DNA of 64,000 nucleotides from Escherichia phage JM17: sequence record PP400779; one strand, written 5' to 3'. The notes under the pieces were generated by a model that saw only the letters and a list, made by a program, of their open reading frames with translations, was not told the DNA's origin and made no database searches. Both the position numbers and the translations under genes were made by a program. Of the stretch, positions 10,830 to 63,786 are shown piece after piece; position 1 is the stretch's first letter, and the number at the start of each line of letters is the position of its first letter.

Positions 10830-11062
10830 GTATAGCAATTTACATTAAATCAGAATCATGTGATAGTTATCTGTACACATACGATAAAGATGTGTCAGAA
10901 GAAAAAATCAAAGACGATCTTAATATGGACCTTGATATGTTCTGTCCTATTGCAGATTACAAACTTGCGGTCTCTAATAGTGAAAGTCCATCTAAAGAAA
11001 CGCGCATTGAAGAATTTATATCTGAACTAATGGCCAAATCATGGGACCGAGATGATGAGTAA
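10826..11062 (+). CDS. hypothetical acidic protein
   Basis: ATGA overlap with upstream ORF. Confidence 0.4.
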   Translation: MSIAIYIKSESCDSYLYTYDKDVSEEKIKDDLNMDLDMFCPIADYKLAVSNSESPSKETRIEEFISELMAKSWDRDDE

Positions 11063-11510
11063 GAAAAATAAAGTGAAAGAACTATCAGCCGGTATTATTT
11101 TCCTTACCGAAGATAAAGAATTATTCATGGGGCGTGTAACTGGTTCTCGTCATAAAGGTGCATTAGCTCATCGGTGGGATATTCCTAAAGGCCGTGTCGA
11201 ACCTGGCGAATCTCCTATTGAAGCCGCTATTCGTGAATGCGAAGAAGAAACTGGGTTTACACAATATGACCCTGCCTTCCTGAAAGACCTAGGTGAACAT
11301 CATTACTCAGACAATAAGAATATTCATCTGTTCCTATATACCATCCCTGTAGAGCACGAGCAATTCAGAAACAGTGTTTGTAATTCCTATCATACATTCC
11401 CAGACGGACGACAGATTCCTGAATTTGATGCATTCGCTTTAATTAAACCTTCTCAATGGGAATATGTAATGGGCAAATCATTATATAAGGTGCTCACTAC
11501 CCTCCTATAA
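11052..11510 (+). CDS. nudE: Nudix hydrolase (T4 NudE-like)
   Basis: Nudix box GRVEPGESPIEAAIRECEEETG; located next to lysozyme gene e. Confidence 0.8.
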   Translation: MMSKKNKVKELSAGIIFLTEDKELFMGRVTGSRHKGALAHRWDIPKGRVEPGESPIEAAIRECEEETGFTQYDPAFLKDLGEHHYSDNKNIHLFLYTIPVEHEQFRNSVCNSYHTFPDGRQIPEFDAFALIKPSQWEYVMGKSLYKVLTTLL

Positions 11511-15190: not shown

Positions 15191-15649
15191 ATGACTATCA
15201 ATTCAGACGTTTTTATCCGCCGTAATAAACTCCGTCGAATCTTTGAAACGGAGTTCCGCAAAATAAATGCCGGTATAAAAGATGCTGCAAAGTCTCTTGG
15301 ACTACCAGGCTTTCATATCAAGTATTCTCAACATCTCTTAGATCGTGCCATCCAGAGAGAAATAGATGAGAATTACGTTTTTGAATTATTTCATAAAGTA
15401 AAAAATCATGTTAAAGAAGTTGCAGAATTTTTATCAATGCCGGCACGTCCAGATGTTGATGAAGATTTTGTCGAAGGTGTCGAATATCGCCCAGGCCGTT
15501 TAGAAATAACTGATGGAAATCTTTGGTTAGGACTTACAGTTTGTCGCGAAAATCCAGCATTCAAAATGAAGACTCTTCAATGCAGAATGGCTATTATTAA
15601 CAGTAAACGACTACCAGGAAAAGCTTCTAAAGCAGTGATTAAAATCTAG
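15191..15649 (+). CDS. hypothetical protein
   Basis: 152 aa; no motif recognised. Confidence 0.45.
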   Translation: MTINSDVFIRRNKLRRIFETEFRKINAGIKDAAKSLGLPGFHIKYSQHLLDRAIQREIDENYVFELFHKVKNHVKEVAEFLSMPARPDVDEDFVEGVEYRPGRLEITDGNLWLGLTVCRENPAFKMKTLQCRMAIINSKRLPGKASKAVIKI

Positions 15650-15657
15650 AGGTAAAC

Positions 15658-16200
15658 ATGAGAAAAGCACTACTCGCTGGTCTATTTGCTCTTTCGTTAT
15701 CAGCATATAGCTCCGAGCATACTTTTAGTAATGTCCAACTCGATAACTTGAATTATGCTTATCAGTTCGGGGAACAGTTTTCTAAGGACGGAAAATTTAA
15801 AACGCATGAAAATATGCATAAGAAAGGACTTGGATACATAATGGCCGCAATACTATGGCAAGAATCATCTGCCGGTATTAATCTTAAAGATAAGAAAGGT
15901 CACCATGCGTATGGAATGTTCCAAAACTATCTACCAACAATGAGGGCAAGAATTAACCAGCTTGGTTATAATATGACTGATGCCCAAATTAAGAAAATGC
16001 TATCTAAGCGGTCTAATTCAGCCAGATGGGCTTATATCGAATTTTCTTATTGGTTAAATATACATAACGGGGATATAAGGAAAGCTATATCCTCATATAA
16101 TGCGGGATGGAAGACAAGTGCTGGAAGTAAATATGCTTCTGAAGTCCTAGAAAAGGCTAATTACCTTAAATCAAATAAACTACTGGAAATAAAAGAATGA
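15658..16200 (+). CDS. secreted lytic transglycosylase-like (SLT domain) protein
   Basis: signal peptide MRKALLAGLFALSLSAYS; SLT-like motifs ILWQESS, YGMFQ, SSYNAGW. Confidence 0.5.
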   Translation: MRKALLAGLFALSLSAYSSEHTFSNVQLDNLNYAYQFGEQFSKDGKFKTHENMHKKGLGYIMAAILWQESSAGINLKDKKGHHAYGMFQNYLPTMRARINQLGYNMTDAQIKKMLSKRSNSARWAYIEFSYWLNIHNGDIRKAISSYNAGWKTSAGSKYASEVLEKANYLKSNKLLEIKE

Positions 16201-16544
16201 CCAAAATGTTGGCTTTAATAGTTGGCTTGGTTTCATTTAACGCTCTTGCTAATACTACATATACTGATGTAACGGAGTATACAAACAGAACGGCGTCTGA
16301 TTATTGTGGTAAAAGTCGAGAGTGTAAAGTAGATTTTTCACAAAAATTGTTATATGCGTATAAAGACGGAGAAAAAGATGGGGCGTCTAGTAGGTTCAAG
16401 GCGTCTACTTTAATTAAAAGATACTATAAAAAATGGCAAATATTAGAATGCTCGGTGGCGGAACCTAAAGATAAGGCAGCATGCAATTCTATGGTGGACC
16501 GTCTAGTTGACTCTTATACTAGAGGACTTGCAGCAAGTGATTAA
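16197..16544 (+). CDS. secreted/periplasmic small protein
   Basis: signal peptide MTKMLALIVGLVSFNALA. Confidence 0.4.
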   Translation: MTKMLALIVGLVSFNALANTTYTDVTEYTNRTASDYCGKSRECKVDFSQKLLYAYKDGEKDGASSRFKASTLIKRYYKKWQILECSVAEPKDKAACNSMVDRLVDSYTRGLAASD

Positions 16545-17001
16545 AAACTATATCAAGGGCGATATTGTCGCCCTGTTTTCTAAAGGTAATAATATTGCTC
16601 ATGGGTGTAATTGTTTTCATACAATGGGCGCCGGTGTGGCAGGACAATTAGCAAAGGCTTATCCAAAAATTCTGGAAGCCGATAAACTTCAAACCGAATT
16701 CGGAGACGAGTCTAAACTCGGGACTTATTCGGTTTATGAAAAATATTTTAAGACCCATAAAGCTTATTGCTTTAATCTTTATACGCAGTTTGAGCCGGGA
16801 CCTAATTTTGAGTACTCTGCTTTAATGAATTGTATAATAGAATTAAATGAATTCGGAAAGAATAAGATAATAAAGCCTGTAATTTATATGCCAAGAATTG
16901 GTGCAGGTATTGGTGGTGGAAACTGGGATGTCATCGAAGAGATTTTAGATACATATTCCACTAAACTAGAAATTGTGATTGTTGATTGGGAACCTAAATG
17001 A
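16507..17001 (+). CDS. macro-domain protein (ADP-ribose binding / putative ADP-ribosyl hydrolase)
   Basis: GDIVALFSKGNNIAHGCNCFHTMGAGVAGQLAKAYP and IGAGIGGGNWDVI resemble macro-domain motifs; start uncertain (overlaps upstream ORF). Confidence 0.5.
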   Translation: MTLILEDLQQVIKNYIKGDIVALFSKGNNIAHGCNCFHTMGAGVAGQLAKAYPKILEADKLQTEFGDESKLGTYSVYEKYFKTHKAYCFNLYTQFEPGPNFEYSALMNCIIELNEFGKNKIIKPVIYMPRIGAGIGGGNWDVIEEILDTYSTKLEIVIVDWEPK

Positions 17002-17180
17002 AATTAACTAAAGAAGAGAAAGCTAAACTGTTCGAACTTATCCATGACCTATTGGATGAACAAGCAGCCACCAATGCGTATGATGAATATGCTCCTTTGA
17101 CAGACGAAGAATATCACGCATTGATGGAATCATTTGACAGGAAAGAACAAGAACTCATTGACTATGTGAATTCACTATAA
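16998..17180 (+). CDS. hypothetical acidic protein
   Basis: ATGA overlap. Confidence 0.4.
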   Translation: MKLTKEEKAKLFELIHDLLDEQAATNAYDEYAPLTDEEYHALMESFDRKEQELIDYVNSL

Positions 17181-17189
17181 GGGACTCTT

Positions 17190-17771
17190 ATGGCTAGTTT
17201 AATTTTTACCTATGCCGCTATGAACGCTGGTAAGTCTGCTTCATTACTTACTGCTGCACATAACTATAAAGAGCGTGGCATGGGTGTATTAGTTCTTAAA
17301 CCGGCTATTGATACTCGCGATTCAAAAGGTGAAATAGTCTCTCGTATTGGTATTCGTCAGGATGCCAATATAATTACAAAAGACATGGATATCTTTGAAT
17401 TTTATAAATGGGCTGCAGCACAAAAGGATATTCATTGTGTATTTGTTGACGAAGCTCAGTTCTTAACTACTGAAAAGGTGTATCAACTTAGTCGTATTGT
17501 TGACGTGTACAATGTGCCGGTAATGGCATATGGACTACGAACAGATTTTAAAGGTAATCTATTTGAAGGTTCTCAAGCATTAATGGCTATTGCCGATAAG
17601 CTTGTTGAACTTAAAGGTGTCTGTCATTGTGGTAAAAAGGCCACAATGGTAGCTAGAGTCACGGAAGACGGACTTCCAATTACAGATGGCAGTCAAATTG
17701 AAATTGGTGATACCGATAGATATGTGTCATTATGCCGGAAGCATTGGAATGATTTGACAGGGTTGTTATAA
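17190..17771 (+). CDS. tk: thymidine kinase
   Basis: P-loop FTYAAMNAGKSASLL; C-terminal CHCGKKA...LCRKH zinc ribbon; 193 aa. Confidence 0.9.
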   Translation: MASLIFTYAAMNAGKSASLLTAAHNYKERGMGVLVLKPAIDTRDSKGEIVSRIGIRQDANIITKDMDIFEFYKWAAAQKDIHCVFVDEAQFLTTEKVYQLSRIVDVYNVPVMAYGLRTDFKGNLFEGSQALMAIADKLVELKGVCHCGKKATMVARVTEDGLPITDGSQIEIGDTDRYVSLCRKHWNDLTGLL

Positions 17772-62333: not shown

Positions 62334-62798
62334 ATGGATGCTATGTTATTTAAAATGTATTTGCTTGAAGCCAAGTCGTTTAAACATATACCAGTAGAAG
62401 ATAAGACTCCACTAGAAATAGCTATTCTCATTAACAAAAGTCTAAATAATCCGCAATATATCGTAGAAGAATTCTGCAAATTGCAGATTCCTAAAGGTTA
62501 CAAAATTCGTGTAGATCGAGTTGGAGCTATTACTCATTCTAAAAATTCTCCGTTTAGTCTTGAAGAAGGCATAAAGGACTTAGGTTATGAATCTACGGAA
62601 AATGCCGTTTATGTGAATCCTGAAAAGCGTTTAGACTTGTTTGAAAAGCGAGACCATAAGTATTTTGCCAAAAAATACTTTATTACATCATTAGCAGATT
62701 TAATCCATTTGCAACGAGCTATTTGGAAATTTTTTAAGACAAAAGGTGTAGCACTAGAAACATTCTCTGAACCTGCTAGTTTTTATTTAGGTGAATAA
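62334..62798 (+). CDS. hypothetical protein
   Basis: 154 aa. Confidence 0.4.
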   Translation: MDAMLFKMYLLEAKSFKHIPVEDKTPLEIAILINKSLNNPQYIVEEFCKLQIPKGYKIRVDRVGAITHSKNSPFSLEEGIKDLGYESTENAVYVNPEKRLDLFEKRDHKYFAKKYFITSLADLIHLQRAIWKFFKTKGVALETFSEPASFYLGE

Positions 62799-63204: not shown

Positions 63205-63786
63205 ATGACATGTCAATCTGAACTTCAAGAACGTGAATACCTAACAAATCTGATTGATAGCAAATTCACCCGCCAAGAACAAAACATTCTCTGGGCTTGC
63301 ACCGATTCTAAGGAAGACCCGGATTTTCACTATGAATTAGACCATCTTGTTCGTAAGCATATGACTTCTACAGTACCAGTAGAACTCTACCGCGGTGTAA
63401 CTCCAGAAGAAGTAGAACGTCTTTCCCTTCTTTCTGTTGGATGCCATTGGTCTCCTGGACGAGTAACATCGTTCACAACTGATTTCAGTACAGCTCGTCA
63501 ATTCTCTGGGAGATGGGAATATCAGACGTACACTATTCTTAGTCTCAGGAATGCTCCATTCATTTTTGATTACTACCAAAACATGATTAACATTGTACTC
63601 GCCGGAAAGAACCCTAAGCATGTTATGGAAGAAACGCGTGTTGACGTCCTAGATATGATTGAATCTGAACAAGAGTACATGGTCTCAAGTATCTCTAGAT
63701 TTGAGATTGTGGAAATTGAAGAGTTAGAGTATGACCCTTTGTCTCGAGTATACAAAATCATTCATTTGAAAATGTTGAATTTTTAG
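63205..63786 (+). CDS. putative ADP-ribosyltransferase (ModA/ModB-like), first of two tandem paralogues
   Basis: 193 aa; R-S-E-type pattern ELYRG ... FSTAR ... EQEYM; N-terminus similar to the next ORF. Confidence 0.35.
   Translation: MTCQSELQEREYLTNLIDSKFTRQEQNILWACTDSKEDPDFHYELDHLVRKHMTSTVPVELYRGVTPEEVERLSLLSVGCHWSPGRVTSFTTDFSTARQFSGRWEYQTYTILSLRNAPFIFDYYQNMINIVLAGKNPKHVMEETRVDVLDMIESEQEYMVSSISRFEIVEIEELEYDPLSRVYKIIHLKMLNF

What the first reader, a model, noticed from the sequence alone, without database searches (positions are those of the whole stretch)
16507..17001. Macro-domain protein in the early region
Glycine-rich macro-domain-like motifs suggest ADP-ribose binding or hydrolysis. 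The window also ends with ModA/ModB-like ADP-ribosyltransferase candidates (63205 onward), so this protein could reverse ADP-ribosylation, whether phage-imposed or part of a host defence (for example DarT-type DNA ADP-ribosylation).
Basis: inference. Interest (0 to 1): 0.6.

Follow-up and report, generated by a model that had tools for sequence, protein, structure and literature searches.

The report
Anti-DarT macrodomain gene tk.4/adfM
This is the copy, in a T4-like (Mosigvirus) phage, of T4 gene tk.4/adfM, a small macrodomain enzyme that most likely strips ADP-ribose off phage DNA to defeat the bacterial DarTG2 defence; the feature is real, but it is already annotated and already described for T4.

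Summary

The window is about 99% identical to Mosigvirus phages. The gene lies in the conserved block regB-vs.1-vs-tk.4-tk, and its product is 85% identical to T4 Tk.4. T4 Tk.4 has long been annotated as carrying an "A1pp phosphatase motif". A November 2025 preprint showed it is needed for T4 to resist DarTG2 and renamed it AdfM.

One point has not, as far as I found, been made in print. This family has an invariant Gln (Q84, motif N-x-Y-T-Q; 262 of 262 sequences) where DarG, TARG1 and phiKZ AdfM have the catalytic Lys. That is the active-site type of Streptomyces SCO6735, which cleaves thymidine-linked ADP-ribose without a lysine.

So T4-type and phiKZ-type "AdfM" belong to different macrodomain subtypes. 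Enzymatic removal of ADP-ribose is inferred, not shown.

Interest is low to moderate.

The parts
16537..17001 (+). tk.4/adfM coding sequence: 154 aa, GTG start, TGA stop at 16999-17001. The start overlaps the end of vs (GTGATTAA) and the stop overlaps the ATG of the next gene (ATGA).
16522..16526 (+). GAGGA Shine-Dalgarno sequence, 10 nt upstream of GTG 16537.
   Evidence: Read directly from the sequence. Conserved in T4, RB32 and moha.
16600..16614 (+). Codons for H22-G23-C24-N25-C26. N25 is the conserved macrodomain Asn, equivalent to DarG N22 and SCO6735 Asn27. H22 corresponds to SCO6735 His24 and Poa1p His23.
   Evidence: N25 in 261 of 262 and H22 in 253 of 262 family members. hhalign to E. 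coli DarG and to TARG1. Residue roles from PMC9411070 and PMC13309987.
16624..16644 (+). Codons for M30-G-A-G-V-A-G36, the first glycine-rich (phosphate-binding) loop of the macrodomain.
   Evidence: G33 and A35 are each conserved in 261 of 262 sequences, and both are invariant in the 101-sequence alignment. Aligned with MGAGIA of TARG1 and MGKGIA of DarG.
16774..16788 (+). Codons for N80-L-Y82-T83-Q84, at the end of strand 75-84. Q84 occupies the position of the catalytic Lys of DarG (K80) and TARG1 (K84), and equals SCO6735 Gln85.
   Evidence: hhalign pairs NLYTQ with NFPTK of DarG, with YLITK of TARG1 and with NMIGQ of BT1257. Q84 and Y82 are in 262 of 262 sequences. The strand ends at residue 84 in the model. 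Gln85 is stated to be equivalent to K80/K84 in PMC9411070.
16891..16926 (+). Codons for P119-R-I-G122-A-G124-I-G-G-G-N-W130, the second glycine-rich loop. G122 and G124 correspond to SCO6735 Gly126 and Gly128. G126 occupies the position of TARG1 Asp125.
   Evidence: phmmer alignment to 5e3b, PRIGCGLAGGTW. Alignment to TARG1, PRIGCGLDRLQW. Family conservation.
16197..16544 (+). vs (valyl-tRNA synthetase modifier), the upstream neighbour. It serves as a synteny anchor.
   Evidence: PHROG 1256, E=1e-34. 67% identity to T4 Vs. Annotations.
17190..17771 (+). tk (thymidine kinase), the downstream synteny anchor. A single tk.2-like 60-aa gene (16998-17180) lies between it and tk.4.
   Evidence: 81% identity to T4 Tk, and 48% identity of the small ORF to T4 Tk.2. 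Annotations.

Best explanation
The gene is the Mosigvirus orthologue of T4 tk.4, now called adfM (anti-DarT factor, macrodomain). It encodes a stand-alone 154-aa macrodomain of the ALC1/TARG1-like clade, made from the early/middle block regB-vs.1-vs-tk.4-tk.

Proposed mechanism: when the phage infects a cell carrying DarTG2, the DarT2 toxin ADP-ribosylates thymidines in single-stranded phage DNA and blocks replication. The macrodomain binds the ADP-ribose through its two glycine-rich loops and hydrolyses the thymine-ribose bond. This restores the DNA and releases free ADP-ribose.

The chemistry is probably not that of DarG or TARG1, because the catalytic lysine is replaced by an invariant glutamine (Q84). 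The likely model is SCO6735. There, the equivalent Gln, held in place by the conserved Asn (here N25), positions the distal ribose, and an activated water starts the reaction.

Status of each step:
- Shown here: the fold, the orthology, the synteny and the active-site residue pattern.
- Shown elsewhere, for the 85%-identical T4 protein: the gene is needed for resistance to DarTG2.
- Inferred: that the protein acts enzymatically on thymidine-linked ADP-ribose, and that it uses the Gln/water mechanism.
For: Fold:
- Pfam Macro is above threshold.
- The AF2 model has pLDDT 96.
- The only NCBIfam hit and the only PADLOC hit are both DarG.

Orthology:
- 85% identity to T4 Tk.4 over the full length.
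- The same order regB-vs.1-vs-tk.4-...-tk is found in T4, RB32, moha and five other Tevenvirinae genera.

Function of the orthologue:
- tk.4 was the single significant hit when a T4 transposon library was grown on DarTG2 cells, and a clean knockout is sensitised.

Active site:
- Q84 is at the DarG K80 / TARG1 K84 position and is invariant in 262 of 262 family members. N25, G122 and G124 are also conserved.
- SCO6735 has Gln85 at that same position. Its Q85A mutant is inactive. The enzyme cleaves dT-ADPr on DNA and protects against DarT. Its loop PRIGCGLAGGTW matches this family's loop.

Domain fusions in the family:
- Macro-NADAR-DUF4326 and Macro-NUDIX proteins exist. NADAR is the domain of the guanine-ADPr eraser AdfN/DarG1.
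Against: No biochemistry exists for T4 Tk.4 or for this protein. The preprint itself says only that enzymatic removal 'seems likely'. The genetic evidence comes from a preprint, on a protein that is 85% identical rather than identical.

The catalytic lysine that is essential in DarG, and retained in phiKZ AdfM (K78), is absent here. Activity therefore rests on the analogy with SCO6735. Yet SCO6735 is not the closest structure overall: Foldseek ranks it 26th, at E=9e-7.

The invariant residues D49, C26 and Y82 have no role in the SCO6735 model. DarG, and inactive SCO6735, can also inhibit DarT by binding it, so a partly non-catalytic mode of action is possible.
Confidence: 0.75

Rival explanations
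1. The protein is a Poa1p-like phosphatase or processor of small ADP-ribose derivatives. It would hydrolyse ADP-ribose-1''-phosphate, O-acetyl-ADP-ribose, or an ADP-ribose-derived immune signal, rather than ADP-ribose attached to DNA. This is what the database labels 'phosphatase', 'A1pp motif' and 'Poa1p-like' imply.
Against: These labels come from domain matches, not from assays. The only phenotype known for the orthologue is sensitivity to DarTG2, a DNA-modifying system. Poa1p has Ser, not Gln, at the key position. Many macrodomains show weak Appr-1''-p phosphatase activity in vitro that has no physiological meaning (established knowledge).
Confidence: 0.1
2. The protein is a non-catalytic antidote. 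It would neutralise DarT2 by binding the toxin, or by shielding ADP-ribosylated DNA, rather than by hydrolysis.
For: DarG inhibits DarT by interaction as well as by hydrolysis, and catalytically dead SCO6735 Q85A inhibits DarT in vitro. The canonical catalytic Lys is missing here.
Against: The whole active-site constellation (H22, N25, Q84, G122, G124 and the glycine-rich loops) is invariant or nearly so across 262 sequences from very different phages. That pattern is expected of an enzyme, not of a binder matched to a variable toxin. The protein also lacks DarG's C-terminal toxin-binding domain: it is 154 aa, against 355 aa for E. coli DarG.
Confidence: 0.07
3. The protein erases the phage's own ADP-ribosylation. 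It would remove the marks placed by Alt, ModA or ModB on host proteins, or ModB-type RNAylation.
For: A ModA/ModB-like transferase is encoded in the same window at 63205-63786. Writer and eraser genes often occur in the same genome.
Against: There is no linkage: the two genes lie 46 kb apart. The T4 enzymes modify arginine (established knowledge), and the TARG1/DarG/SCO6735 clade is characterised on Glu/Asp esters and on thymine or uracil bases. The arginine-specific macrodomains cited in that literature (MavL type) are a different kind. In the preprint tk.4 is reported as a hit only in the presence of DarTG2.
Confidence: 0.04

Closest known systems
T4 Tk.4 = AdfM (NP_049723; bioRxiv 10.1101/2025.11.20.689424)
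   Same: 85% identity over the full length, the same length, the same position between vs and tk, and every family-invariant residue including Q84.
   Different: The start codon is GTG instead of ATG. Residue 127 is Gly (the family consensus), where T4 has Lys. One small gene lies between it and tk, against three in T4. The host genus of the phage lineage is Mosigvirus rather than Tequatrovirus.
Streptomyces coelicolor SCO6735 (PDB 5E3B; PMC9411070)
   Same: It is a stand-alone ALC1/TARG1-like macrodomain. It has Gln at the catalytic-Lys position, the conserved Asn and His upstream, and an almost identical PRIG[AC]G[IL][AG]GGxW loop. It is an orphan protector against DarT-type thymidine ADP-ribosylation.
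   Different: Overall similarity is low: profile E=2.5e-14, and Foldseek rank 26. It is a bacterial, DNA-damage-induced gene rather than a phage gene. Whether the window protein's D49, C26 and Y82 have counterparts in SCO6735 was not checked.
DarG (DarG2) antitoxin macrodomain (PDB 5M31/5M3E/5M3I; NCBIfam NF048014)
   Different: DarG has the catalytic Lys80, a C-terminal DarT-binding domain and an adjacent darT gene. This protein has Gln84, a single domain and no darT neighbour. It scores 33.8 bits against a 250-bit cut-off.
phiKZ gp104 'AdfM' (Cell Rep 2026, PMC13309987)
   Same: It is a phage stand-alone macrodomain that counters DarTG2, and it carries the same name. For gp104, removal of ADP-ribose from DarT2-modified DNA was shown in vitro.
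   Different: gp104 is a true DarG-type macrodomain. It has the FPTK motif with K78 and scores 137.8 bits on the DarG model, against 30-34 bits for T4 and window Tk.4. It is also imported into the phage nucleus.
Human TARG1/OARD1 (PDB 4J5R)
   Same: It is the top Foldseek hit, has the same fold, and also cleaves thymidine- and uracil-linked ADP-ribose.
   Different: The catalytic dyad K84/D125 of TARG1 is Q84/G126 here.
Bacteroides thetaiotaomicron BT1257 (PDB 2FG1/2AFC) and yeast Poa1p (PDB 6LFQ)
   Different: BT1257 has no known function and a longer loop after the Gln. Poa1p has Ser at the Gln position and is characterised as an ADP-ribose-1''-phosphate phosphatase.

Membership tests
Macro domain (Pfam PF01661) | Score at or above Pfam's gathering cut-off | tested here: met
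   28.2 bits against a cut-off of 22, covering profile positions 2-117 of 118.
Macro domain (Pfam PF01661) | Three-layer alpha/beta/alpha macro fold with two glycine-rich ADP-ribose-binding loops and a conserved Asn | tested here: met
T4 Tk.4 / AdfM orthologous group | High full-length sequence identity to T4 Tk.4 | tested here: met
   130 of 153 residues identical (85%) with no gaps, E=3e-104.
T4 Tk.4 / AdfM orthologous group | Conserved position downstream of vs and upstream of tk | tested here: met
   The order regB-vs.1-vs-tk.4-(small genes)-tk is found in the window, T4, RB32 and moha. tk.4 lies next to vs and/or upstream of tk in the other Tevenvirinae genera examined.
T4 Tk.4 / AdfM orthologous group | Required for phage growth on DarTG2-expressing cells | not testable with these tools
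   Shown only for T4. It needs a deletion mutant of this phage.
DarG antitoxin (NCBIfam NF048014) | Score at or above the equivalog cut-off of 250 bits | tested here: not met
   33.8 bits. A genuine E. coli DarG scores 451 bits.
DarG antitoxin (NCBIfam NF048014) | Catalytic Lys80 | tested here: not met
   Gln84 aligns with K80 of E. coli DarG (NFPTK against NLYTQ). Gln is invariant in the family.
DarG antitoxin (NCBIfam NF048014) | C-terminal DarT-binding domain and an adjacent darT (DUF4433) gene | tested here: not met
   The protein is 154 aa and a single domain. Its neighbours are vs and a tk.2-like gene. Compare the darT-darG pair in L003.
TARG1-type hydrolase | Catalytic dyad Lys84/Asp125 | tested here: not met
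   The aligned residues are Q84 and G126.
SCO6735-type (Gln) thymidine-ADPr hydrolase | Gln at the catalytic-Lys position, together with the conserved Asn that positions it | tested here: met
   Q84 and N25 are present and conserved. The equivalence of SCO6735 Gln85 to K80/K84, and the role of Asn27, come from PMC9411070. The Gln equivalence therefore rests on transitivity through TARG1 and DarG, not on a direct alignment of that segment.
SCO6735-type (Gln) thymidine-ADPr hydrolase | Gly126/Gly128 in the phosphate-binding loop | tested here: met
   A direct phmmer alignment pairs PRIGAGIGGGNW with PRIGCGLAGGTW of 5e3b.
SCO6735-type (Gln) thymidine-ADPr hydrolase | Hydrolysis of dT-ADPr on single-stranded DNA, abolished by Gln-to-Ala | not testable with these tools
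   This needs a biochemical assay.
Poa1p-like ADP-ribose-1''-phosphate phosphatase | Close structural similarity to Poa1p | tested here: met
Poa1p-like ADP-ribose-1''-phosphate phosphatase | Phosphatase activity on Appr-1''-p | not testable with these tools
   The annotation is only inferred from the domain match.

The most novel reading that the evidence does not exclude
T4-type AdfM is not a captured DarG. It belongs to a separate and very large macrodomain branch that has Gln where the others have Lys: at least 1,159 clusters at 50% identity with E<=1e-30, and matches in 2,798 phage records. This branch carries an invariant N-x-Y-T-Q signature, also seen in BT1257, and shares its key residue with SCO6735.

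On this reading, Tevenvirinae and chimalliviruses recruited two mechanistically different erasers against the same toxin. The Gln-type enzymes would work by a lysine-independent, water-initiated mechanism. They might act as general erasers of base-linked ADP-ribose, on thymine in DNA and on uracil in RNA. In some phages they are fused to the guanine-specific NADAR eraser or to a Nudix domain.
Probability: 0.5. Interest if true: 0.45.

Novelty: already known. Interest (0 to 1): 0.25.

Why it matters
The main value is in closing the question. The gene can be annotated confidently as adfM (tk.4), an anti-DarTG2 counter-defence gene, in this phage and in hundreds of near-identical Mosigvirus and Tequatrovirus genomes. 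Those records currently label it 'hypothetical protein', 'phosphatase', or even 'leucine aminopeptidase'.

The residue-level point has practical consequences. The catalytic Lys of DarG is an invariant Gln here, as in SCO6735. The obvious 'catalytic-dead' control copied from DarG (K80A) therefore has no counterpart in this protein. Q84A and N25A are the mutants to make.

It also shows that the name AdfM now covers two different active-site types.

If the Gln-type enzymes prove to be broad erasers of base-linked ADP-ribose, the roughly 5% of sequenced phages that carry a homologue would share a common way of escaping nucleic-acid ADP-ribosylating defences. This matters when choosing therapeutic phages for hosts that carry DarTG.

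Tried and rejected
1. TTG 16507 as the start codon. Rejected in favour of GTG 16537.

2. A plain five-sequence MAFFT alignment (A1) placed the TARG1 and DarG catalytic Lys in a gap next to T73. This contradicted the secondary structure. Profile alignments and the model replaced it.

3. The single-sequence phmmer alignment to BT1257 put 'IYKD' opposite 'LYTQ'. The profile methods align 'NMIGQ' instead, and I used those.

4. A terminator-like hairpin at 16556-16574, with pairing to the Shine-Dalgarno sequence, looked like a possible regulatory element. It is identical in T4 and teqhad but absent in five other Tevenvirinae genera. I therefore did not treat it as part of the feature.

5. I looked for darT next to metagenomic homologues (P0113 and P0112). 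The contexts were phage-like, contained no DarT gene, and were uninformative.

6. I looked for biochemical tests of phage Tk.4-type macrodomains in the hydrolase-specificity papers (PMC12879935, PMC11833690, PMC13036486). None had been tested.

7. I could not obtain a direct alignment of the SCO6735 segment around Gln85, because the alignments shown are limited to the five best hits. Only the C-terminal loop was aligned directly.

8. Two literature queries failed because a search term was too short.

Full report
**What is at the coordinates.**
The + strand carries an ORF at 16507-17001. The TTG at 16507 is only the first possible start after the previous stop codon. The real start is GTG 16537, which gives a 154-aa protein. 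Four lines of evidence support this.
- The GTG aligns with the ATG of T4 tk.4.
- A GAGGA Shine-Dalgarno sequence lies 10 nt upstream.
- It is the start annotated in the near-identical phage moha.
- Homologues cover 99-100% of the 154-aa form.

The start overlaps the stop codon of the upstream gene (GTGATTAA). The stop overlaps the ATG of the next gene (ATGA), which is the usual tight packing of T4 early/middle genes. The small ORFs on the opposite strand (30-42 aa) show nothing of note.

**Is it a macrodomain?**
Yes, by every test I ran.
- Pfam Macro (PF01661) scores 28.2 bits against a gathering cut-off of 22 and covers almost the whole model.
- PHROG 335 matches at E=2e-66.
- Sequence searches of the PDB find only macrodomains: BT1257, Poa1p, SCO6735, DarG and TARG1.
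- An AlphaFold2 model built on 101 homologues has pLDDT 96 and pTM 0.91.

The protein therefore belongs to the ALC1/TARG1-like clade of macrodomains.

**Which gene is it?**
The region is 98.8% identical in DNA to Mosigvirus phages such as mar005P1, moha, APCEc01 and JK36. In those records the gene is variously labelled 'macro domain protein', 'phosphatase', 'Poa1p-like' or 'hypothetical'.

The local gene order is:
- regB (15191-15649)
- vs.1 (15658-16200)
- vs (16197-16544)
- this gene
- a tk.2-like 60-aa gene (16998-17180)
- tk (17190-17771)
- rI.1

T4 and RB32 have the same order, and the gene there is tk.4. The protein is 85% identical to T4 Tk.4 with no gaps. RefSeq has long described T4 Tk.4 as 'phosphatase; contains A1pp phosphatase motif'.

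The gene keeps its place near vs and tk in Moonvirus, Gelderlandvirus, Karamvirus, Jiaodavirus and Roskildevirus. A second allele, about 58% identical, circulates in other Tequatrovirus phages. Homologues occur in 2,798 of 50,697 phage records. In a library of 1.84 billion representative proteins, 1,159 clusters match at E<=1e-30.

**What is known about the function?**
A bioRxiv preprint of 20 November 2025 (10.1101/2025.11.20.689424) ran a T4 transposon library on E. coli expressing DarTG2. tk.4 was the single significant hit, and a clean knockout was sensitised. The authors renamed the gene adfM (anti-DarT factor, macrodomain). They suggested that 'it seems likely' the protein removes ADP-ribose from DNA enzymatically. 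They reported no biochemistry.

A Cell Reports 2026 paper (PMC13309987) used the same name for phiKZ gp104. [quoted passage not shown]

T4's other eraser, AdfN (gene 30.3, a NADAR protein), handles the guanine modification made by DarT1.

**How it most likely works.**
The interesting detail lies in the active site. Profile-profile alignment places the motif N80-L-Y-T-Q84 opposite NFPTK80 of E. coli DarG and opposite YLITK84 of TARG1. Q84 sits at the end of strand 75-84 in the model. TARG1's second catalytic residue, D125, corresponds to G126 here.

The Gln is not a peculiarity of this phage. It is present in 262 of 262 sequences: the window protein plus 261 homologues, including 150 representatives of 50%-identity clusters. 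The following residues are similarly conserved:
- Y82 and D49: 262 of 262
- N25, C26 and N80: 261 of 262
- G122 and G124: 260 of 262

The closest solved structure, BT1257, has the same pattern (NMIGQ).

There is a biochemical precedent. S. coelicolor SCO6735 lacks the catalytic Lys80 of DarG and the Lys84/Asp125 dyad of TARG1, and has Gln85 at the lysine position.
- Its Q85A and Q85E mutants are inactive.
- Asn27 holds the Gln in the right rotamer.
- Gly126 and Gly128 are important for activity.
- The enzyme cleaves thymidine-linked ADP-ribose on DNA and protects Streptomyces from DarT.
- A water-initiated mechanism was proposed for it (PMC9411070).

Its loop PRIGCGLAGGTW aligns directly with PRIGAGIGGGNW of the window protein.

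I therefore propose that this protein uses the SCO6735-type, lysine-independent mechanism on DarT2-modified thymidines. This step is inferred. SCO6735 is also not the closest structure overall (Foldseek rank 26).

**Two kinds of 'AdfM'.**
phiKZ gp104 carries the DarG motif FPTK and scores 137.8 bits on NCBI's DarG model. T4 Tk.4 scores 30.3 bits and the window protein 33.8 bits, all against a 250-bit cut-off designed for full-length DarG. The two phage groups therefore use different subtypes of the same clade against the same toxin.

**Supporting context.**
Some family members are fused to other ADP-ribose modules: Macro-NADAR-DUF4326 (P0238), DUF4326-Macro (P0242) and Macro-NUDIX (P0237). A fusion to NADAR, the guanine-ADPr eraser domain, fits a role against DarT-type toxins. 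A Nudix partner would dispose of the released ADP-ribose. The window itself encodes a NudE-like Nudix protein at 11052-11510.

**Rivals.**
- Phosphatase or small-molecule processing. The 'phosphatase / Poa1p-like' reading rests on domain labels and on fold similarity that DarG and TARG1 share equally. Poa1p has Ser at the Gln position.
- Non-catalytic DarT2 inhibitor. This is conceivable, because inactive SCO6735 inhibits DarT. However, the strict conservation of the active site across very different phages argues for catalysis, and DarG's toxin-binding domain is absent.
- Reversal of the phage's own Alt/ModA/ModB marks. This has no support. The ModA/ModB-like gene does exist at 63205-63786, but it lies 46 kb away. 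This clade is characterised on acidic-residue esters and on thymine or uracil bases, not on arginine.

**Verdict.**
The feature is a well-conserved, already annotated gene whose function was recently assigned in T4, so I rate it 'already known' and of low to moderate interest.

The residue-level finding is a useful refinement and directly testable, but it is not a new kind of system. That finding is the invariant Gln in place of the catalytic Lys, the SCO6735/BT1257-like active site, and the distinction from phiKZ AdfM.

Noticed in passing
window 16556-16574 (with 16520-16527 and 16575-16582): A terminator-like hairpin, AGGGCGAT-ATT-GTCGCCCT followed by GUUUUCU, lies 19 nt inside tk.4. In the predicted RNA fold, the tk.4 Shine-Dalgarno region pairs with the U-rich tail (z=-2.4). 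The hairpin is identical in T4 and teqhad despite nearby third-position changes. It is absent in five other Tevenvirinae genera, so it is lineage-specific at best.
   Followed up: partly
window 11052-11510 (+): A 152-aa ORF carries a canonical Nudix box (GRVEPGESPIEAAIRECEEE) and is probably the T4 nudE/e.1 orthologue. From memory, T4 NudE is reported to act on ADP-ribose, so it could degrade the product of the macrodomain. Neither the orthology nor the activity was tested here.
   Followed up: no
window 63205-63786 (+) and 62334-62798 (+): The first ORF is a ModA/ModB-like ADP-ribosyltransferase (PHROG 832, E=1e-38) and is annotated as such in near-identical phages. The second is Mrh (PHROG 1234). 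I found no functional link to tk.4.
   Followed up: partly
window 16998-17180 (+): Only one small gene lies between tk.4 and tk: 60 aa, 48% identical to T4 Tk.2, PHROG 653, function unknown. T4 has three genes there (tk.3, tk.2, tk.1) and RB32 has five, so this is a variable mini-region.
   Followed up: partly
L006:404-858 (Citrobacter phage CF1): The tk.4 homologue of Citrobacter phage CF1 is annotated as two CDS (404-682 and 682-858), and tblastn matches it in two pieces. The gene appears to be disrupted in that phage.
   Followed up: no
proteins P0238, P0242, P0237 (metagenomic family members): Gln-type macrodomains of this family occur fused to NADAR plus DUF4326, to DUF4326 alone, and to a NUDIX domain. 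A Macro-NADAR fusion would combine the thymine and guanine ADP-ribose erasers in one protein.
   Followed up: partly
residues D49, C26, Y82 of the window protein (codons at 16681-16683, 16612-16614, 16780-16782): These residues are invariant or nearly so in 262 family members, but they have no assigned role in the TARG1, DarG or SCO6735 mechanisms. The phmmer alignment pairs D49 with an Asp of Poa1p.
   Followed up: no
L003:845-2565 (E. coli pSTEC1012_1): A darT-darG pair sits between hsdS and hsdR of a type I restriction-modification system. The DarG there scores 451 bits on NF048014 and has K80. The 'plasmid' record is 1.2 Mb long, which is unusually large.
   Followed up: no
window 16197-16544 (+), gene vs: The upstream gene vs, whose stop overlaps the tk.4 start, was the most strongly depleted T4 gene in minimal medium in the same HIDEN-SEQ preprint. 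The two overlapping genes are thus each conditionally essential, under different conditions.
   Followed up: no
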